From IMG/VR virus record IMGVR_UViG_2695420487_000015: DNA of 39,156 nucleotides, one strand, 5' to 3'. The notes beneath the pieces were generated by a model, which was given only the letters and a program-made list of their open reading frames with translations, had not been told where the DNA came from and did not search any database. A program made the position numbers and the translations under genes. This DNA comes from a virus (lineage: Duplodnaviria > Heunggongvirae > Uroviricota > Caudoviricetes). Positions 3,761 to 25,691 of the stretch are shown here, one piece after another. Within the stretch, counting starts at the first letter, position 1, and each line of letters opens with the position of its first letter.

Positions 3761-6190
3761 TTAGTCATGCATCATGCTTGCGCGGGCTTTGGCGCGTTTC
3801 TCACGCTCATATTTTTCTAAGGCATCCTGTAAATCATCACCTAACCGACCGCCTGGTATACCGTTGCCCGGCACGTTGATTTGATAGGTTGGCCGACTCT
3901 GGTCGATGTAGGTTTTACCGGCGGGTGCCGTGACCGGCTGATAGCTGTTGTAAGAGCTGATAGCCGGGCTATAGCCGTTCTGCGTCGCCGCACTGGCTTT
4001 CGCCGCGGTCTGGTCAAGTGAGCTGGACTCTTTGTTGATAATCCCGAGTTTTTCGAGCACCCAATCAATCCCGCTTCGCAGCTTGTTAAAGGCGTTAAGC
4101 GGCATCAGCAGCGCATCGGCCAGCGCCTGACCGAACATAACGCCAACATCACGACAACTGTTAAGCGTGTCCTGAGTCGCTTTTACCGGCGCTATCAGGT
4201 CTTTAAACCACTGCCATACACCGCGAAGTTTCTCGCCGAGGCCGTCAAAGGCGGGTACCAGCGGCGCGAACATTTCCCCGACCGGCGCAAAGGCGCTCAT
4301 CAGCCCCTCGATAACACCACCGAAAAAGGCGCTGACCGGCTCCCAGTATTTGCGAATAAGCAGCGCGCCACCGACAACCGCCGCCGCAACGGCCACGACC
4401 GGCCATGTAATCGCACCGATAGCGGCGATAACCCCGCCACTGATTGTCGTAAAGACAGCACCAAGTGCGCCAGCAGCAGCGATGATGGCGTTAATACCGA
4501 TAATAACCGGCCACGCAACAAGGCCGATTGCCCCTATAACCCCCACAACACCGATAGCCGCCGCTGAAATAACCCCAAGCGTCGTCGCCAGTGATTTATT
4601 TTTTTGTATCCAGCCATCAAGTTTTAAAACATACCCGGTCGCCGTTTGTACCAGCTTACGCAAGGATGACTCTTGCTGGTCAAACAGGTCTGTTCCGACC
4701 GCCTCATAAGCTGACTGGAACTCTTTAAAGTCGCCGCCGAGGTTGTCCTGCATGACCTTGACGAGCTCAGCCGTTTTACCGTCAGATGCTTTAAGTGTGG
4801 CGGTAAGCTGGTCCAGTTTACCGCTTGAGGCTGCAGTCATTAATACAGCAGCAGCTGAGCTTGCCTCTTCACCGAATATGGTTTTCATGTATTCAGCGCG
4901 CTGACCGGTACCGAGATTATTTTTCTCAAAGCTCCGCTGCATTTCTTTCAGGATGTTAAATATTGGGCGCGTGTTCCCCTTACCATCAGCCGTTTTTACG
5001 CCGAGCTCTTTAATAGCGTCATACGCTTTTCCCGTAGGAGCCTGTAGGCGACTTAACACAGCGCGGCTCCCCGTACCCGCCATCGAGCCTGTAATTTTGG
5101 CGTCATGCAGTGCGCCGACCATTGCGGCTGTTTCTTCGATACTGACCCCGGCATTTTTCGCCACCGGTGCGGCATAGGTCAGCGCATCACTCAGGCCGTC
5201 AAAGTCGGCGGCGGTTTTGTTCATCGTCATCGACAGAACATCACCGATATGGGCGACCTTATCGTTTGAGAGCTGGAATGCTGAGCGCATCCCCATCAAT
5301 AACCCGGCGTTCTCTTCCATCGTTCGACGGTTTGCGAGCGCCATATCAAGCGTCACTGGCGTAGCCGCCTGAATAGCAGCGGTATCACCACCGGCTTTTG
5401 CAATAATAATCTGAGCACCGGCAGCATCATCAGCCGACGCGGCTGTGTTATCACCGAGTTGACGCGCCTGTTTGCGAAGAGCCACCATATCAGCTGAATC
5501 TTTTTCAACGCCGAGAACAGCCTGAAGCTCAGAGTTTTTCTGAGCAAAATCATAACCGGGTTTCATTAGTGCAACACCGGCGAGAGTAGCTGTTGTTGCC
5601 ATACCTACCCCGGCAGCGCCCATCGAGGCGGCATTCCCTGCCAGAGCCTTCCCTGCCTGATAGCGTTTTTGTACTGCACTCAGTTTCGCCTGTTGCGCGC
5701 TGACGCGCGCCAGTGCTTCACGCTGGCGGTTAAGCTGTGCGGTCGTTTCGCTGATATTATTTTTCAGGCGATTTTCATCATTCGTCAGGTTGCGGGTATT
5801 AATCCCCGCTTTACCGAGCTCCGCCTGTTGCCGCTTAACAGACTGCGTGAGGCTGTTATATTTCGTCTGCAACCCATCAGCCGCGCGTTTCGCTGACTCC
5901 AGCACTCTGGCCTGTGCCGCTGTTGGCCGTTCCGTGTTTTTAAACTGCACCGCCAGCGCTTCAGCTTCCTGTTTTGCTTTTTCCAGCGACTGGCCGGTTA
6001 CCGCCAGTTGCGCACTGGTTTTACGAAAACCGTCTATTTTCGATGCCTGACCATTCAAATCACGCAGGGATTGCTGAGTCATGCGGATATCACCAGACAG
6101 CGATTTACTCGCCGTCTGGATCGCTTTAAAGGGTCGGGTCGCCTGGTCGACAGCTTTCAGCAGCACTTCGAGTTTGAGGTTATTACTCAT
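3761..6190 (-). CDS. T: Tail tape measure protein
   Basis: About 809 aa with a coiled N-terminus and Gly/Ala-rich hydrophobic centre. Start placed at the ATG at 6190 (MSNNLKLEV); the track's longer form begins at a TTG at 6235. Confidence 0.85.
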   Translation of the reverse strand: MSNNLKLEVLLKAVDQATRPFKAIQTASKSLSGDIRMTQQSLRDLNGQASKIDGFRKTSAQLAVTGQSLEKAKQEAEALAVQFKNTERPTAAQARVLESAKRAADGLQTKYNSLTQSVKRQQAELGKAGINTRNLTNDENRLKNNISETTAQLNRQREALARVSAQQAKLSAVQKRYQAGKALAGNAASMGAAGVGMATTATLAGVALMKPGYDFAQKNSELQAVLGVEKDSADMVALRKQARQLGDNTAASADDAAGAQIIIAKAGGDTAAIQAATPVTLDMALANRRTMEENAGLLMGMRSAFQLSNDKVAHIGDVLSMTMNKTAADFDGLSDALTYAAPVAKNAGVSIEETAAMVGALHDAKITGSMAGTGSRAVLSRLQAPTGKAYDAIKELGVKTADGKGNTRPIFNILKEMQRSFEKNNLGTGQRAEYMKTIFGEEASSAAAVLMTAASSGKLDQLTATLKASDGKTAELVKVMQDNLGGDFKEFQSAYEAVGTDLFDQQESSLRKLVQTATGYVLKLDGWIQKNKSLATTLGVISAAAIGVVGVIGAIGLVAWPVIIGINAIIAAAGALGAVFTTISGGVIAAIGAITWPVVAVAAAVVGGALLIRKYWEPVSAFFGGVIEGLMSAFAPVGEMFAPLVPAFDGLGEKLRGVWQWFKDLIAPVKATQDTLNSCRDVGVMFGQALADALLMPLNAFNKLRSGIDWVLEKLGIINKESSSLDQTAAKASAATQNGYSPAISSYNSYQPVTAPAGKTYIDQSRPTYQINVPGNGIPGGRLGDDLQDALEKYEREKRAKARASMMHD

Positions 6191-6616
6191 TCGTGTTTCC
6201 GCTTCGCTGTAGCGCTTTTTCGCGCCAGTTGACAAGCTCGGTCAGGCTCATGGGATAAAGGTCTGATGGCGACCAGTGGAAAATTACCGCTATGTCAGCC
6301 ATCAGGTCATCGACCGAGAGTTTTTTCGGGAAGGTTACGCCGCCGAACTCGGTGACAAAAAACCGACCACCTTACCGGCAAACGATAACAGGTCGGGCAG
6401 CTCCAGCGCGGCGGCTTCCTGCTCGGTCAGCGACGGCATAGTCATGCGTGGCAGCACTTTAATCAGCGCATCGACGTCAGAATTTGCGACAGATGCCAGG
6501 CTGACGCCGCGAAGGGTTCCGGCACACGGCTTTAACAGGGTGACATCGGAAATTACCTGCTCGCCGCGCTTGATGGGTTTAATCAGAGTGACGATATTTT
6601 CGTTAGATTTTTCCAT
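6183..6616 (-). other. E+E' product made by programmed -1 frameshift at T_TTT_TTG (6362..6356)
   Basis: The heptamer is in the correct phase of the E frame. The -1 frame then stays open for 57 codons (VTEFGGVTFPKK...GNTNE) and stops at 6183-6185, overlapping the T start ATG. Confidence 0.7.
6335..6616 (-). CDS. E: Tail assembly chaperone E (short form)
   Basis: 93 aa, similar to P2 gpE; contains the slippery site near its 3' end. Confidence 0.8.
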   Translation of the reverse strand: MEKSNENIVTLIKPIKRGEQVISDVTLLKPCAGTLRGVSLASVANSDVDALIKVLPRMTMPSLTEQEAAALELPDLLSFAGKVVGFLSPSSAA

Positions 6617-6678
6617 GATATTTCTCGTTAAATTCAGGTTTCAGGATCCCCGGCCAGCCATGCTGACCGGGACAATAA

Positions 6679-7197
6679 TTACAGACCGATATTCTGTCGG
6701 TGTGCCTCAAGCATGTCGGTACCGTTCACCATTTCGACGAGGTTAACGGTGTCGATTTCGACCATATCTTTACCGTTGAGTGTCAGCTTGTAGTACGAGC
6801 ACTCGAGCGAGATTTTCGACTCAGTGTCTTCGCCCTGCTTGGCTTCGCCGAGGTCGATTTCTTTCTGACGGCCACGGAGAACAACCTCAACCGGCACGGT
6901 CTCGCCGGTGTCATCACGCTGGTAAGACCCGGCAAAACGTAGCGGCACAGAGGCCGTACCGATGGCGGCATATAACGACCAGACAGCATCATCAGGAAAA
7001 CCGCCGAGCGAGATTTCAGCTGACAGCGCATCGTCATCGAGGCCAAGGTCAACCGAGGCTGAGCCATTCATCCCGCCGCCGCGATACTTCTCAAGCTTGC
7101 GGGTTAATTTTGGCAACGTGACGGACTGCACGACGCCGAGATAACTCACCCCGTCGATAAACAGGTTCATGAGTTTGAGCTTGCGCGGTAATGCCAT
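6679..7197 (-). CDS. FII: Major tail tube protein
   Basis: 172 aa, MALPRKLKLMNLF..., near-colinear with P2 FII as recalled. Confidence 0.9.
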   Translation of the reverse strand: MALPRKLKLMNLFIDGVSYLGVVQSVTLPKLTRKLEKYRGGGMNGSASVDLGLDDDALSAEISLGGFPDDAVWSLYAAIGTASVPLRFAGSYQRDDTGETVPVEVVLRGRQKEIDLGEAKQGEDTESKISLECSYYKLTLNGKDMVEIDTVNLVEMVNGTDMLEAHRQNIGL

Positions 7198-11627: not shown

Positions 11628-11975
11628 TCAACTCACAGGAATAGTCAGTGACAGGGTTTTGCCGGTGTCCCGGGCCTCGCCGGTCAGCTCAACAATCATC
11701 TGACCGTTAAACTGACGCTCGACCGTCAGCGAGCTGATGCTGATGCGCGGCTCCCACTTCAGCAGCGCCATATAACAGGCGCACATAATTTGCAGCCTCA
11801 GCGCGTCGGTCTGCGGCATATCAATCAGGGAGAACAGTAGCGAGCCATAATCGCGGCGCATCACGCGAGATCCAACCGGCGTTCGCAAAATATCGCCACA
11901 GCTCTGACGGATGTGATCGGCGTCAGTGATAGCTCGCCCTGTCTCGCGATTCATGCCGATATATCGGGTTGTCAT
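11628..11975 (-). CDS. W: Baseplate protein W
   Basis: 115 aa, the same length as P2 gpW. Confidence 0.85.
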   Translation of the reverse strand: MTTRYIGMNRETGRAITDADHIRQSCGDILRTPVGSRVMRRDYGSLLFSLIDMPQTDALRLQIMCACYMALLKWEPRISISSLTVERQFNGQMIVELTGEARDTGKTLSLTIPVS

Positions 11976-12613
11976 TTCGTCCCCTCCGTCCAGGCTCCAC
12001 CTCTTTGCACACCGCCGTGACCGTGGTCATCCACCACCACGCCATTTGATGAGAGTTTGCCGCCGGTGTGCTCGATATCGCCGCTCATCTTCCCGCCTTT
12101 GGTGACCTCGAGCGTGGCGGTCGTCAGTTTGTTGGTGCAGACAACTTCCGGGGTATCAAGGGTGATGCGGGTCTCGGCTTTCACCGTCACCAGCGGTACC
12201 GTCGCGATGATGGAATCCGACGCCGTAACGTCTGCGGTTTTAATACCGCTCACGGTCAGCGCGCTGGTCTCCGGCTCGTACTCGATAACAGCCCCGTCAG
12301 GAAAGGTGATGTGAAAAGCATCAGCCGACACCGACGGCGCGGGGTGTTCATCCGAAAAAATGCCGGGTAGCACAAAAGCCGTGTCCAGCTCACCACCGAC
12401 GGCCAGCAGTAAAACCTGCTCACCCACAGACGGAGCCCACCAGACACGTGAGCGACCGGCGCGCGCAGTCAGCCACTGAAGCCAGTCGGTAACAATGCCG
12501 CCAGTCTGGACGCGACAGCGCCCGTCATCGAGGCCAACCTCGACAATAACGCCGGTTCGGATCAGATTGCGAAGGAGGCGCTGAATGTCCTGAAGAGTGG
12601 ATTGTGTTTTCAT
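11972..12613 (-). CDS. V: Baseplate spike protein V
   Basis: 213 aa, ...GRCRVQTGG..DWLQWLT..AG.SR.WWAPSVGEQVL motif shared with P2 gpV. Confidence 0.85.
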   Translation of the reverse strand: MKTQSTLQDIQRLLRNLIRTGVIVEVGLDDGRCRVQTGGIVTDWLQWLTARAGRSRVWWAPSVGEQVLLLAVGGELDTAFVLPGIFSDEHPAPSVSADAFHITFPDGAVIEYEPETSALTVSGIKTADVTASDSIIATVPLVTVKAETRITLDTPEVVCTNKLTTATLEVTKGGKMSGDIEHTGGKLSSNGVVVDDHGHGGVQRGGAWTEGTK

Positions 12614-12660
12614 GCTGGGAAGGATGAAGGAAAAACACCTTCAATGTAATTGAGCGGTGT

Positions 12661-12678
12661 TGTATGCTTTTTAGTACA
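12661..12678. promoter_or_regulatory. TGT-N12-ACA dyad, candidate Ogr-type activator site in the divergent V / cargo-gene intergenic region
   Basis: Exact TGTatgctttttagtACA read in sequence; P2-family late promoters use this dyad (recollection). No equivalent exact dyad was found in the P-O or G-FI intergenic regions, so chance occurrence is possible. Confidence 0.3.
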
Positions 12679-12698
12679 ACTTCAAGAGGATAACCAAA

Positions 12699-13412
12699 TT
12701 GGATAACAAGGAATATCAGAGGCACTTTGGAATAATAACTGATGAATTACAAAAGCCTTCCGATAAACATTTGAGAGCATTTACGCAGGTTGCTGACATT
12801 AGAAAGTTTGAAATTGAGATGTATTGGAAAAGAGCTACGTATTTCTGGACCATTATTGCTATTACTTTTACTGGTTATTTTGCTTTAGCCTCCGCAAATA
12901 GCTTTCCGTTCAAAAATGCATTTTCTCTTTTGCTTTCCAGTATGGGATCCGTTTTTACTCTTTCATGGTTTTTGGTAAACAGAGGTAGCAAATACTGGCA
13001 GGAAAACTGGGAAAATCACTTAGACCTGATGGAAAACGGCATAACTGGGCCGCTCTATAAAACTGTACTCTCACGACCGTCAGTCGAAGCCAAAAAAAAC
13101 GCACCTCAACTTGCGAGTACTGATAAAGATTTTATCGACAAACATATCACCGGCCCCAAAAAAATATCAGCATCCAAAATTAACCAATTAGTTGCATTTT
13201 ACTTGCTTGGCATATGGTTAATATTAGTAATGACAACAATTACTAACATCTTAAAACTATCATTCTGGAGTGAATCCACGATAGAAGTAGTGTTGAGCGT
13301 GGGAGTTTTAATTTGGTCAGCAATAGCCACTAGTTTAATGTTTTGTAAGTCAGCCACCTATACAGGAATACAGACTTCAGAGGCAAGAAAACGCTCTTCG
13401 AATTTGTTATAA
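12699..13412 (+). CDS. Cargo gene: predicted four-helix membrane protein of unknown function
   Basis: AT-rich ORF with four hydrophobic segments. Track start is a TTG at 12699 preceded by AAGAGGA; the first ATG is at 12819. Lies between tail genes V and S. Confidence 0.6.
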   Translation: MDNKEYQRHFGIITDELQKPSDKHLRAFTQVADIRKFEIEMYWKRATYFWTIIAITFTGYFALASANSFPFKNAFSLLLSSMGSVFTLSWFLVNRGSKYWQENWENHLDLMENGITGPLYKTVLSRPSVEAKKNAPQLASTDKDFIDKHITGPKKISASKINQLVAFYLLGIWLILVMTTITNILKLSFWSESTIEVVLSVGVLIWSAIATSLMFCKSATYTGIQTSEARKRSSNLL

Positions 13413-13680
13413 CGTTGGTGATACACTAATAAATTCATTTAAAGCCCTCAGTTTTGGGGGCATGTAATCTCTACTTTCTCACGGAAAGAGAGTCCAGGAT
13501 GTACACCAGCGCTTGACGCGGAAAGCTAGTCACTGGTGGCAATACTGCGGGTGCGACATAGACTACGCAGGAAGCGCACAATATCCGGAAAGTAGGTTGT
13601 GTTTTCGTGTGGGAAAGGATGCCGCCTTAGAAGATCGGCGGCAATAGAGGTATGCAGTTCTATCTCTGGTAAAATTTTGT

Positions 13681-14757
13681 TTATTTTCGTTTGCCATAAG
13701 ACTGGGTTAGAATCGGAGTAATATCCTTAGTAAAGATATCTAGTCTTTCTTTTTCGGCTGAGAAAACATACTGTCTGGCTTGAATTACATTTTGCCTACT
13801 AATTAAGTTTGACACCTTTTCTGGTTTGCTTAGTGCAACTTTGGCACCCTTGAATATCAACGCTAAGCCCGGTGATATTGTAAAAATACATCCATTATCA
13901 AATGAAAAATCATTTTTTAAGAAAATAAAAGGAAAATCACTTGAAACAATGGCATATCCCTTAGGTGCTGAGTACAAATATACCCTACAACTACTCTCAT
14001 TGGTGATTGAGGAAAAAGGTAACGCCATAAATCTATGCATCTTTCTAAGTAAGTAAAACATTTCCCTCCGCTGTCCGCTGTCCGCATTAACTAGATACGT
14101 TCCTCCCTCCTTTAGTATAGATAACAAAGACCTCCATTCAGAACGTGGGATTATGCTCGCACCAGAAGGAATGAGATCCTTATTAGTATTCAGTACTTTC
14201 TTGATGGTGGTGTTTATATTTTTTAATTTTGGCATGGAGCCTTTATCAAAAAAATCATCCATACCTTTGTTTCTATAACATAAAAAACGGGCCATGAAAA
14301 TTGCCATGTTTTTTAAATCGTTGAAATCAATCTCATGCAAACCACTACATACTATCGAACGTGCGAATTTTTTTTCCGAAAGCTTGCCAAGCAACCAGTG
14401 TCTACGCACGAAATAATGACTACCTGAAGCATTTTTAAAATGCTCCTTTAATTTATAAAATTGCCACATTGCGTCTACAAAATCAGGGTAACAATCCTCT
14501 AGTATTTTAAAACTGTCCTCAATAAAGTTATCTCTATCCCCATCAATATAAAGAGTATGCCTTCGCTCTTGACCACAAATTTTTGTGGCATTAAGAAAAG
14601 TAATCCTTTCTTTTATTTGCTTTTTGGTGGCATCTGTTTTCACAAAACCATAAACAGTATCTTTCCCAGTCTTTGGGTCTTCAGATGTTATTTTAAAATG
14701 CCTGATATAAGTTGCAGGCAGATAATGCTGATAGTTTTGAAAAGTTCCCTTTGACAT
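13681..14757 (-). CDS. Cargo gene: DUF4238-like protein, candidate single-gene anti-phage defense protein
   Basis: AT-rich, 358 aa from the ATG at 14757, preceded by GGAGG and only 13 nt after the S stop. N-terminal HYLPATYIRHF resembles the DUF4238 signature as I recall it. Confidence 0.6.
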   Translation of the reverse strand: MSKGTFQNYQHYLPATYIRHFKITSEDPKTGKDTVYGFVKTDATKKQIKERITFLNATKICGQERRHTLYIDGDRDNFIEDSFKILEDCYPDFVDAMWQFYKLKEHFKNASGSHYFVRRHWLLGKLSEKKFARSIVCSGLHEIDFNDLKNMAIFMARFLCYRNKGMDDFFDKGSMPKLKNINTTIKKVLNTNKDLIPSGASIIPRSEWRSLLSILKEGGTYLVNADSGQRREMFYLLRKMHRFMALPFSSITNESSCRVYLYSAPKGYAIVSSDFPFIFLKNDFSFDNGCIFTISPGLALIFKGAKVALSKPEKVSNLISRQNVIQARQYVFSAEKERLDIFTKDITPILTQSYGKRK

Positions 14758-14770
14758 AGTAACCTCCAAT

Positions 14771-15223
14771 TTACCAAGTCATAATTTTTTTAATGATAAT
14801 ATATTCAACCTCTTCAGTTAAATCATTATTGAAACCAATGAGTGGTCGAGTGGGGTATTCAATCCGTCTGCTGTTAATGTTTGGGGCATCCTTTAACCCG
14901 TACTGATGCACCTTAGCCATACGCTGTACCTTGCCGGTAAATTCCACGACCGCCGCGTTATTCCCCGCCGTGGCTTTCATAAAGCGACTGGTACGGAGTT
15001 TGGCGAACATTTCCCGCTTAACCCGGCCTTTTTTGGCTTTTACCGGCTGGCGTTTTCGGGCGGCGTAAGGTGTCCCGTCCGGGGCTTTCTGCGTTTTAAT
15101 CCGGCGCTGTTGACGGGCTCGCAGGGTCTTCGCGATATCTGCGGCCATTCTGCGACGGGCGGCAGGTGACAGCGCCGCTATCAGCCCCGCGAGCTTATCG
15201 TCAAAGGGTTTAAAGTCATTCAT
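14771..15223 (-). CDS. S: Tail completion protein S
   Basis: 150 aa; position and size as in P2. Confidence 0.8.
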   Translation of the reverse strand: MNDFKPFDDKLAGLIAALSPAARRRMAADIAKTLRARQQRRIKTQKAPDGTPYAARKRQPVKAKKGRVKREMFAKLRTSRFMKATAGNNAAVVEFTGKVQRMAKVHQYGLKDAPNINSRRIEYPTRPLIGFNNDLTEEVEYIIIKKIMTW

Positions 15224-15683
15224 GCAATCGACTCACAAGCTCACCGTTAACATACAGCTCAACCGGTCGGGTAACGGGTTCCGGCGGCTGCGGCTCTTCT
15301 GCCTGTTCGACGTGGAGCTTATCCCCTGACTCTTTAACGATGGTGCGCTCGGTCAGCATCAGGCTGATACTGACATCAACGCTGTCGTTGTCGTTGATAT
15401 CGGCAAAATAGGTGAATCCCTTTTTACGCCCTTCATCGGTCGTCATAATGTCAGCCTGATGGATGCGCAGCCACGCCTGAATCGGAACAAGTAACAGCTC
15501 GATATCATCCGTGAAATCGGTCACCACCACATTCAGCGTGTACCGGTTCTCAAACGACAGCGACGTCGCCAGCGTCGAGGCCAGATTCCCGTTGTCGATA
15601 AAGACACGCATCATATCGGGGTTTCGCGCCAGCACCGGCACGGCGTCAGTTAAGGCTTTTCGCAGACTCTTCGGCTTGTACAT
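15216..15683 (-). CDS. R: Tail completion protein R
   Basis: 155 aa; position and size as in P2. Confidence 0.8.
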   Translation of the reverse strand: MYKPKSLRKALTDAVPVLARNPDMMRVFIDNGNLASTLATSLSFENRYTLNVVVTDFTDDIELLLVPIQAWLRIHQADIMTTDEGRKKGFTYFADINDNDSVDVSISLMLTERTIVKESGDKLHVEQAEEPQPPEPVTRPVELYVNGELVSRLHE

Positions 15684-23952: not shown

Positions 23953-25170
23953 TTAATTAGCTTTATCAAGGCGTCCCCCCACCACCATCCGCTTGTAATT
24001 TATTGCGAACAACTTAATTTTTTCAGGGAACTTTGACGCCAAAATTATTGACTTTCTGTCTACATATGAATAAAAGGGCATTGATATCAAAATAGTTATC
24101 ATCGAAGTTAAGATAAATGTAACAAACGCACCAACGGACGGCGACGCAATGTTTTTGTAAACCCAAAAACCAACTATAGATATAACAAATGGATGAAGCA
24201 AGTATATTGAAAATGACAACTTCCCAATAAACAAGACTACATTTTTGCTCATCCCCCTTAAACATCTCCCATTCACAAAGACAGAAGCAATAATCAAAAA
24301 AGAACCAAGCGATATTGTAAACTCTGGCCATTGTATTAATATACCGCATTGAAACTGAAGGTAGAGGTAAAATTCAACCAGATCTTTATACGCAGTGCTC
24401 GCCGGTGCATACCCAACAAGATAAAGGCCAATAAACAACATAAGAAGCGATACAAACTTTCTTAACCGTCCATTATTTTCACTTATCTCGAAAGTTGATA
24501 AAAACACACCAGAAAGGAAAAGCCCATAATAAATTACATTAATACTACCAGACAAAAACATGCAAACAAATGAAATAAACGACAACCAGCGAAGAATGGT
24601 CTTGTTCTCACCAAACAGAGATATAAATCCGTATACCAATATAGAACCAAAAAACTCAATACTAATAGTCCACAGAACATAGTTATACTTTATATTACCA
24701 AAAAGCATAGCGCCAAATGAAGCATCCCATATGGCTGACACTATATTCCCATCAAAACTAAACGCAGTCATTAACGGCATTGATGCAGCGGGGCTATCCT
24801 TATCCGGAAAAAAGCCCAACAACATTATAAAATAGCAAATAATCACAGATGCTGCTACGGGAACCCCAAGCCTAATGTATCTCTTCAATGCTGATGCTTG
24901 TATATAACGTATTTCGTTATTATTTTTTTGGCAACTCAGTGACAAAACCAACCCGCTCAAAACAAAGAATAAGCTAACAGCAGATCCCCCCTTATAGAAA
25001 AAAGTAAAAGGGCTATTAAATAAATTTTCTTGCCACTTGCTATCAAACATACTGCCAGAATGCACCGAAGGTATAAACATTAAAAATGAATGCGATAAAA
25101 CGACAGCCATGGCTGCCACACCTCTTATCCCATCAAAGATTTTTACATTATTTCTCTCATTATCACTCAT
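23953..25170 (-). CDS. Cargo gene: acyltransferase family 3 membrane protein (O-antigen/LPS acetylase type)
   Basis: AT-rich, 405 aa, about 10 hydrophobic segments, N-terminal DGIRGVAAMAVVLSHS motif typical of acyltransferase-3; sits in the cos-to-A interval, the P2 tin/old slot. Confidence 0.75.
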   Translation of the reverse strand: MSDNERNNVKIFDGIRGVAAMAVVLSHSFLMFIPSVHSGSMFDSKWQENLFNSPFTFFYKGGSAVSLFFVLSGLVLSLSCQKNNNEIRYIQASALKRYIRLGVPVAASVIICYFIMLLGFFPDKDSPAASMPLMTAFSFDGNIVSAIWDASFGAMLFGNIKYNYVLWTISIEFFGSILVYGFISLFGENKTILRWLSFISFVCMFLSGSINVIYYGLFLSGVFLSTFEISENNGRLRKFVSLLMLFIGLYLVGYAPASTAYKDLVEFYLYLQFQCGILIQWPEFTISLGSFLIIASVFVNGRCLRGMSKNVVLFIGKLSFSIYLLHPFVISIVGFWVYKNIASPSVGAFVTFILTSMITILISMPFYSYVDRKSIILASKFPEKIKLFAINYKRMVVGGRLDKAN

Positions 25171-25268
25171 GCAAAAAACCTTTTATAATAAAAAATGTCA
25201 TTTCGATTAACGTATTGTATTGGTTATTATTGTGTTATAACTGACAATCAACCTTAAAAAAACGCGGC

Positions 25269-25297
25269 ATTATAGCACCTTAAGCCTGTTGTATGAA
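25269..25297 (-). promoter_or_regulatory. Candidate sigma-70 promoter for the acyltransferase gene
   Basis: Minus-strand TTCATA, 17-bp spacer, TATAAT. Confidence 0.3.
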
Positions 25298-25463
25298 TAT
25301 CATTATTGTTTTGACAGGAAGAGTTCCGTTTACGCCCCACCTAACCTTCGGAGCACTGAGTAGTGCTCCCAATGAGGTTGGAATAAGGGGAGATTCAAAA
25401 AATAGCTGACCATTCTATGCAGGCAACCCAACTACCAGCATACAACTTGTTTTTTCTCGCAAC

Positions 25464-25646
25464 TTACTCAGCCTTTGTTAATCGTTCTTCAGCATGGGTT
25501 GCAGAGAAAACCAGTGAAAAGGAGTTATTTTTCATCAAGTTGCCTCTCACTATTTCTGCAATCAAATTCAATGCGATTTCACGGTCTCTTTCCTTACAAG
25601 TCCCTTCAGCCGTTAGACGCGCAATCATTTCGACTCGCTCAATCAT
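25464..25646 (-). CDS. Small hypothetical protein (60 aa) downstream of a LexA box; candidate SOS-controlled antirepressor-like gene
   Basis: First ATG at 25646 with a weak RBS; charged, helix-like composition. The track's longer ORF starts at a GTG and would contain the LexA box. Confidence 0.3.
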   Translation of the reverse strand: MIERVEMIARLTAEGTCKERDREIALNLIAEIVRGNLMKNNSFSLVFSATHAEERLTKAE

Positions 25647-25691
25647 AACGTGCTCACTTAATTCTCTATCCACACAACCTCCACAACGAGA

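What the first reader, a model, noticed from the sequence alone, without database searches (positions are those of the whole stretch)
12614..14770. AT-rich two-gene cargo island between tail genes V and S: DUF4238-like protein convergent with a four-helix membrane protein
Two ORFs with visibly lower GC than the phage backbone sit between tail genes V and S; the known P2 cargo slots are elsewhere (tin/old between A and cos, Z/fun between G and FI), and the Z/fun slot here is empty. The 358-aa protein opens with HYLPATYIRHF, which I recall as the DUF4238 signature; a DUF4238 protein from a P2-like hotspot has been reported as a single-gene anti-phage system. Its ATG lies 13 nt after the S stop behind a GGAGG, so it may be co-transcribed with the late operon. 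The convergent partner has a short cytoplasmic N-terminus and four hydrophobic helices, a topology seen in pore-forming effectors. Whether the two act together is unknown.
Basis: partly seen in the sequence, partly recalled or inferred. Interest (0 to 1): 0.85.

Follow-up and report, generated by a model that had tools for sequence, protein, structure and literature searches.

The report
Two stacked cargo genes, P2 prophage
An AT-rich 2.3-kb insert between tail genes S and V of a P2-like E. coli prophage holds two independently acquired accessory genes, a divergent DUF4238 candidate anti-phage protein and a RipA/8xMP-family membrane protein, in a cargo slot already known as the P2 'orf30' locus, so it is a modest new example rather than a new kind of system.

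Summary
Window 12627-14887 has 33-42% GC against a 55-61% backbone. It carries two intact convergent genes between gpV and gpS. The 358-aa protein reaches Pfam DUF4238 just above threshold and has the family's N- and C-terminal motifs. The 237-aa protein is a clear PF24838 '8xMP' member, which NCBI's annotation pipeline names 'RipA family octameric membrane protein', and it has four hydrophobic helices.

The interpretation needs correcting on two points.

- **The slot is not new.** S-V is the P2 orf30 locus, one of three long-known variable regions. In 77 related viral contigs, 34 are empty and 43 carry diverse cargo, including Pycsar, DRT, a ThsB-type TIR protein and another DUF4238.
- **The genes are not an obligate pair.** A relic of the V start and of the native S-V hairpin lies between them, which marks two separate insertions. 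Each gene occurs without the other elsewhere, and 8xMP has no conserved neighbour in 79 genomes surveyed.

Both genes are under purifying selection (dN/dS 0.05-0.14). The cassette has also moved as a unit to plasmids.

Most likely this is a single-gene DUF4238-type defence candidate next to a stand-alone membrane protein of unknown role. The DUF4238 protein is only remotely related to the validated one, and its mechanism is unknown. Verdict: a new member of a known kind, of low to moderate interest.

The parts
11972..12613 (-). gpV baseplate spike gene. This is the backbone on the left of the slot.
   Evidence: Phage_base_V, Phage_spike and Apex domains. About 90% nt identity to the empty-site E. 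coli prophage, extending to 12626.
12661..12678 (-). TGT-N12-ACA dyad, a candidate Ogr/B activator site of the late promoter P_V. Its centre lies 56.5 nt upstream of the V ATG, in the 85-bp V/8xMP intergenic region.
   Evidence: Read from the sequence. In P2 the annotated pV activator site (TGT-N11-ACA) is centred 57 nt before the V start. The element is conserved in Serratia locus L003. Its function is inferred, not shown.
12699..13412 (+). Gene for a 237-aa RipA/8xMP-family inner-membrane protein with four predicted TM helices. It has a TTG start behind AGAGGA and is transcribed divergently from V.
   Evidence: PF24838 8xMP, E 3.6e-36, 124 bits against a cut-off of 30. The pipeline name is 'RipA family octameric membrane protein'. 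There were 1986 homologue clusters. Hydropathy was computed. dN/dS is 0.05-0.10.
13444..13461 (+). A 7-bp G+C hairpin 32 nt after the 8xMP stop, a possible terminator.
   Evidence: RNA fold, z = -2.66 against shuffles. It has no U-run and the terminator scan did not call it.
13505..13643 (-). Relic of the original junction: the first ~30 codons of a gpV gene (ATG changed to GTG, stop after about 34 codons), the 13 nt upstream of it, and the native S-V hairpin (UGCCGCC-N10-GGCGGCA, 13620-13643). The hairpin now sits 38-61 nt after the DUF4238 stop.
   Evidence: Direct repeat D1 (12596-12626 and 13591-13621, 81%). Alignment to the V start region. The same GCCGCC...GGCGGC-ATCCTT hairpin lies between S and V in the empty-site phage. 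Serratia L003 has a longer relic with an intact ATG.
13681..14757 (-). Gene for a 358-aa cytosolic protein of a small, divergent DUF4238 subfamily. It is a candidate single-gene anti-phage protein.
   Evidence: PF14022, 27.8 bits against a cut-off of 27, full-length match. Only 11-16 homologue clusters exist. Invariant residues include H11, Y12, Y17, F21, R66, T68, E80, E87, D167, D274, P276 and F277. The AF2 model has pLDDT 74 and pTM 0.75. dN/dS is 0.10-0.14.
14763..14767 (-). GGAGG ribosome-binding site for the DUF4238 gene, inside the 13-nt gap after the S stop.
   Evidence: Sequence.
14793..14821 (-). Sigma-70-like promoter match (TTAACT-17-TATCAT) inside the AT-rich 3' end of S, 36 nt upstream of the DUF4238 ATG.
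   Evidence: Consensus scan, 9 of 12 matches. The number of such sites in the region is not above the shuffled expectation, so this is only a candidate.
14771..14887 (-). The last 39 codons of gpS. This part is cassette-borne and AT-rich (GC 0.34 over the last 120 nt, against 0.51 in the empty-site phage).
   Evidence: Backbone homology to the empty-site phage starts only at 14888. The S C-terminus matches that of the Serratia cassette.
14888..15223 (-). The rest of gpS (tail completion and virion morphogenesis). This is the backbone on the right of the slot.
   Evidence: Phage_tail_S, E 1.3e-33. 96% nt identity to the empty-site phage.

Best explanation
The segment is accessory cargo in the S-V ('orf30') variable locus of a P2/186-like E. 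coli prophage. It consists of two single-gene modules that arrived separately.

**Module 1, next to S.** This is a divergent DUF4238-family cytosolic protein. It was inserted between S and the hairpin that natively follows S, and it brought a replacement AT-rich 3' end of S, its own GGAGG and a promoter-like element. It should therefore be read through from the late operon during lytic growth, and may also be expressed at a low level in the lysogen. By analogy with the validated single-gene DUF4238 system from the P2 cos-adjacent hotspot, I infer that it acts alone as an anti-phage protein that both senses and responds, probably as an enzyme. Its chemistry is unknown.

**Module 2, next to V.** This is a RipA/8xMP-family four-helix inner-membrane protein, transcribed away from the V late promoter. 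It recurs on its own in this slot and elsewhere. Its role is unknown. My best guess is a membrane-level exclusion or defence function that works on its own, not as the effector of the DUF4238 protein.

**What is shown and what is inferred.** Shown: the anatomy, the family assignments, the independent distributions, purifying selection, and the hotspot nature of the slot. Inferred: the expression pattern, anti-phage activity and mechanism.
For: **The slot is a hotspot.**
- P2 has the nonessential Orf30 there, and the literature names the locus as variable.
- Of 77 related IMG/VR contigs, 34 have a 66-69-bp junction and 43 carry 0.77-3.9 kb of cargo, falling into about 45 protein clusters.
- That cargo includes Pycsar (PycC and PycTM), DRT (RT_UG17 with SLATT), a ThsB-type TIR protein, Ppl, GmrSD_N, a STAND NTPase, DUF4062 and a canonical DUF4238.
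- E. coli relatives have either DUF4062 or nothing in the slot.

**The island is composite.** A relic of the V start plus the native S-V hairpin lies between the two genes.

**The two genes are independent.**
- The DUF4238 subfamily occurs alone on Escherichia IncFII plasmids, between parM/stbB and pemIK. It also occurs in a Pantoea deleyi defence island.
- 8xMP occurs alone in the S-V slot in Yersinia and other hosts. Elsewhere it sits with Septu PtuA/PtuB or with a DUF5677 protein.
- In 79 species-level genome loci where the 8xMP gene could be called, it has no recurrent neighbour and no DUF4238 neighbour.
- In Serratia the 8xMP gene is frameshifted while the DUF4238 gene is intact.

**Both genes are functional.** dN/dS is 0.05-0.14.

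**There is precedent for DUF4238 in defence.** A single DUF4238 protein gives strong T7 resistance.
Against: - The DUF4238 assignment is borderline (27.8 bits against a cut-off of 27).
- The protein shares only N-terminal similarity with the validated protein and does not hit PADLOC's DUF4238-Pers model. That model is so narrow that it also misses a canonical DUF4238.
- No anti-phage phenotype is known for this subfamily or for any 8xMP protein.
- The fold has no solved relative, so no mechanism can be read from structure.
- The pair has stayed linked and intact over dS of about 0.47 in prophage, remnant and plasmid contexts. This is also what a cooperating pair would show.
- The promoter and terminator assignments rest on weak consensus matches.
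Confidence: 0.6

Rival explanations
1. The two genes form one two-gene defence system. The cytosolic DUF4238 protein senses infection and activates the 8xMP oligomer as a membrane pore, causing abortive infection.
For: The convergent pair, with the same ~270-nt spacer, is intact at 87-90% identity in an E. coli prophage, in Pantoea chromosomal remnants, in metagenome contigs, and on Klebsiella IncFIB and Pantoea plasmids where all phage genes are gone. The two genes have the same dS of about 0.47 and both have low dN/dS. Membrane effectors paired with cytosolic sensors are common in defence systems; this last point is general knowledge.
Against: - A relic of the V start and the native intergenic hairpin lies between the genes, so they were joined by accident of insertion.
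- The genes are convergent and not in an operon.
- At the same divergence, 8xMP is paired with DUF5677 or Septu instead, with breakpoints just after its stop codon.
- 8xMP occurs alone in the slot.
- DUF4238 occurs alone on IncFII plasmids and in a defence island.
- No DUF4238 lies next to 8xMP in any of 79 genomes.
- The Serratia 8xMP gene is decayed while its DUF4238 is intact.
- The validated DUF4238 system is a single gene.
Confidence: 0.12
2. The 8xMP gene is a lysogenic-conversion factor that acts on the envelope, not a defence gene. Like Francisella RipA, which is genetically and physically linked to LpxA, it would modulate lipid A or LPS synthesis and so alter surface properties or the LPS-core receptor used by P2-type phages. 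The DUF4238 gene would be a separate module.
For: The family carries the RipA name. RipA has been reported to interact with LpxA, and suppressors of a ripA deletion map to lpxA (PMC4322802; PMC12444477). Other cargo found in the same slot includes LpxA-like hexapeptide acyltransferases and an Acyl_transf_3 protein. The gene points opposite to the late genes, as expected for a gene expressed in the lysogen.
Against: Homology to Francisella RipA was not tested here; it rests on the annotation name only. The review notes that ripA mutation had no measurable effect on membrane composition. Neighbours of 8xMP in other genomes include many defence or mobile-element genes, such as HEPN, methyltransferases, Abi_alpha, AbiTii, RT and HamB, and no LPS genes stood out.
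Confidence: 0.15
3. The ORFs are ordinary tail or morphogenesis components of this phage lineage, or decaying junk without function.
For: They lie within the late structural gene block, and the DUF4238 gene is positioned as if translationally linked to S.
Against: - 34 of 77 related phages, and a 96%-identical E. coli relative, have S and V only 66-69 bp apart.
- Neither protein matches any of 50,697 sequenced phage records.
- There is no informative PHROG hit.
- GC is about 20 points below the backbone.
- Both genes survive intact on plasmids under purifying selection.
Confidence: 0.02

Closest known systems
Rst_DUF4238 / 'DUF4238-Pers' single-gene anti-phage system (Rousset et al. 2022, plasmid pFR101, from E. 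coli TA007, P2 cos-adjacent hotspot)
   Same: Both belong to the same Pfam family (PF14022). They share the N-terminal H-[HY]-[YF]-L-x-x-x-Y-[LI]-x-x-F motif and the C-terminal [ST]-S-D-x-P motif. Both are stand-alone genes carried in a P2-like prophage hotspot. Both are cytosolic with no TM segment.
   Different: Only 31% identity over about 80 N-terminal residues, and hhalign probability is 60%. This protein has 358 aa against 309, with an extra, poorly modelled middle region. It lies in a different hotspot (S-V, not cos-adjacent). It does not hit the PADLOC model. Its phenotype is untested.
P2 orf30 locus (variable region between S and V of P2-like phages)
   Same: Same position, between the terminator region after S and the V late promoter. 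Low GC. Polymorphic for presence or absence. In both cases a nonessential gene faces away from V (P2 Orf30 and the 8xMP gene here).
   Different: P2 Orf30 is unrelated to either protein: it has no Pfam hit and hhalign probability below 1% against 8xMP. Here two modules are stacked, with a relic of V between them.
RipA / PF24838 8xMP family (Francisella tularensis RipA, a cytoplasmic-membrane protein linked to LpxA)
   Same: Strong HMM membership. A small multi-pass inner-membrane protein with highly conserved cytoplasmic segments: DIRKFEIE-YWKR-YFW and NRGSKYWQENWENH...TGPLYKT.
   Different: It is phage-borne and sporadically distributed, in variable and defence-rich neighbourhoods. The direct relationship to Francisella RipA, and the octameric state, were not tested here.
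Prophage hotspots that stack defence systems (P2 TO-region, P4 hotspot, the P2 'tail gene' hotspot of PMC13586616)
   Same: Small loci between conserved phage genes, with rapid turnover of unrelated cargo exchanged by recombination in the flanks. Here the S 3' end and the V 5' end travel with the cargo.
   Different: This particular cassette has also escaped to plasmids and chromosomal remnants, still carrying stubs of S and V.

Membership tests
Pfam PF14022 DUF4238 | Profile HMM score at or above the gathering threshold over most of the model | tested here: met
   27.8 bits against a cut-off of 27, E 2.1e-6, residues 9-333 on profile positions 1-277 of 281. This is borderline. The pipeline annotation and the precomputed Pfam hits for homologues agree.
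Pfam PF14022 DUF4238 | Conserved N-terminal HH[YF]L..xY[LI]xxF motif and C-terminal [ST/G]-D-x-P motif | tested here: met
   QHYLPATYIRHF and VSSDFPF are invariant in the subfamily. The N-terminal motif aligns with HHHFLSQCYLKGF of the validated protein. The C-terminal motif aligns with the GDTP motif of a canonical DUF4238 protein, though with weak statistics (hhalign probability 5%). The match to ITSDNPV of the validated protein was read by eye from its sequence.
Pfam PF14022 DUF4238 | Fold shared with other DUF4238 proteins | tested here: inconclusive
   The AF2 model has pLDDT 74 and pTM 0.75. The only significant structural match is an uncharacterised protein of the P2-like Stenotrophomonas phage Smp131 (E 1.7e-6, TM 0.36-0.43), and its family was not checked. 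The AFDB libraries were unavailable.
Rst_DUF4238 / DUF4238-Pers anti-phage system | Match to the system's detection model | tested here: not met
   No PADLOC hit at E <= 1. The model scores 718 bits on the validated protein but also misses a canonical DUF4238, so it detects close orthologues only.
Rst_DUF4238 / DUF4238-Pers anti-phage system | Functions as a single stand-alone gene on mobile elements or in defence islands | tested here: met
   Subfamily members occur alone on IncFII plasmids and in a Pantoea island with TIR/SLATT genes and a second DUF4238.
Rst_DUF4238 / DUF4238-Pers anti-phage system | Confers phage resistance (strong against T7) | not testable with these tools
   Needs cloning and plaque assays.
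Pfam PF24838 8xMP / 'RipA family octameric membrane protein' | Profile HMM score above threshold | tested here: met
   124.4 bits against a cut-off of 30, E 3.6e-36, profile positions 2-135 of 136. 46 invariant columns are shared with 35 homologues.
Pfam PF24838 8xMP / 'RipA family octameric membrane protein' | Multi-pass inner-membrane topology | tested here: met
   Four hydrophobic segments, and K/R-rich N-terminus, central loop and C-terminus. The cytoplasmic orientation is inferred from the positive-inside rule.
Pfam PF24838 8xMP / 'RipA family octameric membrane protein' | Homo-octameric assembly | not tested
No solved structure was detectable by sequence, and no paper describing the octamer was found.
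Pfam PF24838 8xMP / 'RipA family octameric membrane protein' | Homology to Francisella RipA itself | not tested
   This rests on the annotation name only.
P2 orf30-locus cargo (S-V variable region) | Located between S and V, absent from close relatives, with deviant composition | tested here: met
Obligate two-gene defence system | Partners co-occur across divergent homologues and are co-transcribed | tested here: not met
   Co-occurrence is confined to one cassette lineage (78-100% nt identity). More distant homologues of each gene lack the other, and an equally close 8xMP copy (L012, about 87% nt) is paired with a DUF5677 protein instead. The genes are convergent, with a relic of V between them.

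The most novel reading that the evidence does not exclude
The RipA/8xMP family has 1986 homologue clusters, relatives at 329 sites in a 185,579-species genome set, a sporadic distribution, no fixed partner, and frequent placement beside defence and mobile-element genes. It could be an unrecognised single-gene membrane-based anti-phage or superinfection-exclusion module that P2-like phages keep next to the V promoter. Less likely, it could be a pore effector that the neighbouring DUF4238 protein has recruited.
Probability: 0.25. Interest if true: 0.6.

Novelty: new member of a known kind. Interest (0 to 1): 0.3.

Why it matters
If the DUF4238 protein protects against phages, the validated DUF4238 defence family would extend to a very divergent, rare subfamily found in prophages and on IncF plasmids. 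That would supply a second, distant sequence for working out a mechanism that is still unknown.

The finding also documents the S-V (orf30) slot as a rich defence hotspot that can be subdivided and stacked, with cargo that travels together with stubs of S and V.

The 8xMP/RipA family is widespread, strongly conserved and has no known function. A phage-borne copy under purifying selection is a convenient way to start testing what it does.

Tried and rejected
- **Structure prediction without an alignment.** Single-sequence AF2 of the DUF4238 protein gave pLDDT 36.7 and was useless. It was redone with a 16-sequence alignment.
- **PDB sequence and profile searches.** Searches with both proteins found only designed repeat proteins, gp41 fragments or similar chance hits.
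- **PADLOC, PHROGs and NCBIfam.** No useful hits for either protein.
- **Is 8xMP related to P2 Orf30 or to SLATT effectors?** Rejected: hhalign probability below 1% for both.
- **RNA elements.** Rfam found nothing in 12300-15300. The terminator scan found none, and promoter-like sites were not above the shuffled expectation.
- **Sequenced phages.** tblastn of both proteins against 50,697 phage records gave no match. Megablast of the island against the same records also gave none.
- **Literature on an octameric RipA structure, or on RipA in phage defence.** Nothing relevant; the hits were RIPA buffer.
- **Literature on a DUF4238 mechanism.** None found.
- **A conserved partner of 8xMP.** All 70 flanking proteins (after removing second halves of split 8xMP genes) were singletons.
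Full report
**Source and observation.** The window is a P2/186-like prophage of E. coli. It is identical to a prophage next to tRNA-Ile in five of 5,426 complete E. coli genomes, for example NZ_OZ501679.1.

GC drops from 0.55-0.61 to 0.33-0.42 between about 12600 and 14800. Two convergent ORFs lie there: 12699-13412 on the + strand (237 aa) and 13681-14757 on the - strand (358 aa). They are flanked by gpV (11972-12613) and gpS (14771-15223).

There are 13 nt between the S stop and the ATG, with GGAGG at 14767-14763. The protein has an N-terminal QHYLPATYIRHF. The partner protein has four hydrophobic helices. The Z/fun position is empty, with a 131-bp gap.

**Family assignments.** The 358-aa protein hits PF14022 DUF4238 at 27.8 bits, against a gathering score of 27, over almost the whole profile.
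- It belongs to a very small subfamily. Two searches of multi-billion-protein collections found only 11-16 clusters.
- Invariant residues include H11, Y12, Y17, F21, R66, T68, E80, E87, D167, D274, P276 and F277.
- Against the experimentally validated DUF4238 protein (Rousset 2022, pFR101; sequence from the supplement), it shares only the N-terminal ~80 residues: 31% identity, E 2e-4, hhalign probability 60%. The [ST]SD-x-P motif is also shared.
- PADLOC's 'DUF4238-Pers' model does not detect it. That model also misses a canonical DUF4238, so this only shows that the protein is not a close orthologue of the validated one.
- An AF2 model built from a 16-sequence alignment reached pLDDT 74 and pTM 0.75. 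It has no solved structural relative. Its only viral match is an uncharacterised protein of the P2-like phage Smp131.
- No paper on a DUF4238 mechanism was found.

The 237-aa protein is a clear PF24838 '8xMP' member (E 3.6e-36), which NCBI's pipeline names 'RipA family octameric membrane protein'.
- The family is large, with 1,986 clusters. Relatives were found at 329 sites in a 185,579-species genome set, across many phyla.
- Its cytoplasmic segments are very strongly conserved.
- I could not verify the octamer or the link to Francisella RipA. What is published on RipA is a genetic and physical link to LpxA.

**The slot.**
- P2 itself carries the nonessential Orf30 between the terminator after S and the V activator site.
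- Lynch et al. 2010 list the TO-region, the Z-region and orf30 as the three loci of horizontally acquired genes in P2-like phages.
- A 2026 survey reports a defence hotspot within the P2 tail genes.

My own survey of the 80 IMG/VR contigs closest in gpV gave 77 in which both S and V could be located. Of these, 34 have a 66-69-bp junction and 43 carry 0.77-3.9 kb of cargo, in about 45 unrelated protein clusters.
- Defence-type cargo: Pycsar PycC and PycTM, DRT RT_UG17 with SLATT, a ThsB-type TIR protein, Ppl, GmrSD_N, a STAND NTPase, DUF4917, DUF4062, several PADLOC candidate systems and a canonical DUF4238.
- Non-defence cargo: GGDEF/MASE4 proteins and acyltransferases.

None of the 43 occupied slots had 8xMP or this DUF4238 subfamily, so both are rare occupants.

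**Anatomy: a composite of two insertions.** Homology to a related E. coli prophage with an empty junction ends at 12626 on the V side and resumes at 14888 on the S side. The last 39 codons of S are therefore part of the AT-rich insert (GC 0.34 against 0.51).

Between the two cargo genes lies a relic of the original junction:
- about 30 codons of a gpV 5' end, with the ATG changed to GTG;
- the 13 nt upstream of it;
- the same GCCGCC...GGCGGC-ATCCTT hairpin that sits between S and V in the empty-site phage.

Serratia has the same arrangement with a longer relic. The history this implies has two steps. First, the DUF4238 gene was inserted between S and its downstream hairpin. Second, a block consisting of 8xMP, the V promoter and V, from another P2-like phage, was joined within the V 5' end. 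The V promoter dyad (TGT-N12-ACA, 12661-12678) is centred 56.5 nt before the V ATG, against 57 nt in P2.

**Are the two genes a system?** The evidence favours independence.
- The DUF4238 subfamily occurs alone between parM/stbB and pemIK on Escherichia IncFII plasmids. It also occurs in a Pantoea deleyi island with TIR/SLATT genes and a second DUF4238.
- The 8xMP gene sits next to V, in the same divergent orientation, as the only cargo in Yersinia enterocolitica, Y. alsatica and another lineage. It sits with a Septu PtuA/PtuB pair in one relative and with a DUF5677 protein in another. In both, homology breaks just after the 8xMP stop.
- The 8xMP gene could be called in 79 of 80 species-level genome loci. 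There its flanking genes are all different and none belongs to this DUF4238 subfamily. The neighbours include HEPN proteins, methyltransferases, integrases, Abi_alpha, AbiTii, a reverse transcriptase and Hachiman HamB. This suggests variable, defence-rich neighbourhoods, but I did not quantify it against controls.
- In Serratia the 8xMP gene is frameshifted while the DUF4238 gene is intact.

One observation points the other way. The whole cassette, with stubs of S and V, persists with both genes intact on Klebsiella and Pantoea plasmids and in chromosomal remnants. Both genes show equal dS of about 0.47 and dN/dS of 0.05-0.14. Tight physical linkage explains this without cooperation, but it keeps the two-gene reading alive at about 0.12.

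**Mechanism.** I commit to the following.
- The DUF4238 gene is a single-gene anti-phage candidate. It is co-transcribed with the late S operon, and possibly also from a weak promoter inside the swapped S 3' end (14793-14821). It acts in the cytosol through a conserved His/Arg/Glu/Asp site whose chemistry is unknown.
- The 8xMP gene is an autonomous inner-membrane protein expressed divergently from the V promoter. Membrane-level exclusion or defence is the likeliest role. LPS or lipid A modulation of the RipA-LpxA type is the main alternative.

All functional steps are inferred. Only the anatomy, the family membership, the distributions and the selection were shown.

**Verdict.** This is a new member of known kinds (DUF4238 cargo in the known orf30 hotspot). 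Its unresolved element is the function of the 8xMP family.

Noticed in passing
window 23953-25673: The canonical cos-adjacent (TO-region) hotspot of this prophage is also AT-rich (GC about 0.36-0.39). It carries an Acyl_transf_3 acyltransferase (405 aa, E 3.9e-25) and a truncated DinI gene, not a recognisable defence system. This looks like possible O-antigen or LPS modification cargo.
   Followed up: partly
window 31821-33284 (- strand): A 487-aa hypothetical protein with no Pfam hit lies just beyond the integrase, in an AT-rich stretch (GC 0.385). It precedes a feature annotated 'tRNA-OTHER' at about 33470-33574. The position matches the integrase-att defence hotspot reported for P2-like phages in PMC13586616.
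   Followed up: partly
window 14771-14887, and S genes of L016, L017, L101, L002: In cargo-bearing P2-like phages the last ~120 nt of gene S are AT-rich (GC 0.34-0.44, against 0.51 in the empty-site phage), although the protein C-terminus is conserved. Cargo exchange therefore seems to cross over inside S and to carry a foreign S 3' end along.
   Followed up: partly
L191 (Klebsiella quasipneumoniae IncFIB plasmid) 5001-7063; L192 (Pantoea ananatis plasmid); L183-L188: The whole DUF4238 / V-relic / 8xMP cassette, still carrying stubs of S and V, has left the phage. It sits among IS elements and plasmid genes with both ORFs intact.
   Followed up: yes
L103-L182 (IMG/VR P2-like contigs), the region between S and V: The S-V slot holds a wide range of known systems (Pycsar, DRT with SLATT, a ThsB-type TIR protein, Ppl, a GmrSD-like protein, a STAND NTPase, PDC candidates) and many proteins with no annotation. 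This is a compact source of candidate defence genes.
   Followed up: partly
window 12605-12700 (- strand); L011 1730-1815: Gene V has no Shine-Dalgarno sequence. As in the P2 record, where the transcription start is annotated at the V start codon, the activator dyad lies about 56 nt upstream of the ATG. This fits a leaderless or nearly leaderless V message.
   Followed up: no
L101 1791-3134 and about 16 other E. coli genomes: The commonest occupant of this slot in related E. coli prophages is a 447-aa protein with an N-terminal DUF4062 domain, on the same strand as S and V. It has no PADLOC match.
   Followed up: partly
L008 339-2990 and 7484-8347 (Pantoea deleyi): A member of the divergent DUF4238 subfamily sits convergent to a canonical 287-aa DUF4238 gene. 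They lie beside genes for a ThsB-like TIR protein, a SLATT protein and a TPR protein, and an integrase. This looks like a small defence island with two different DUF4238 genes.
   Followed up: no
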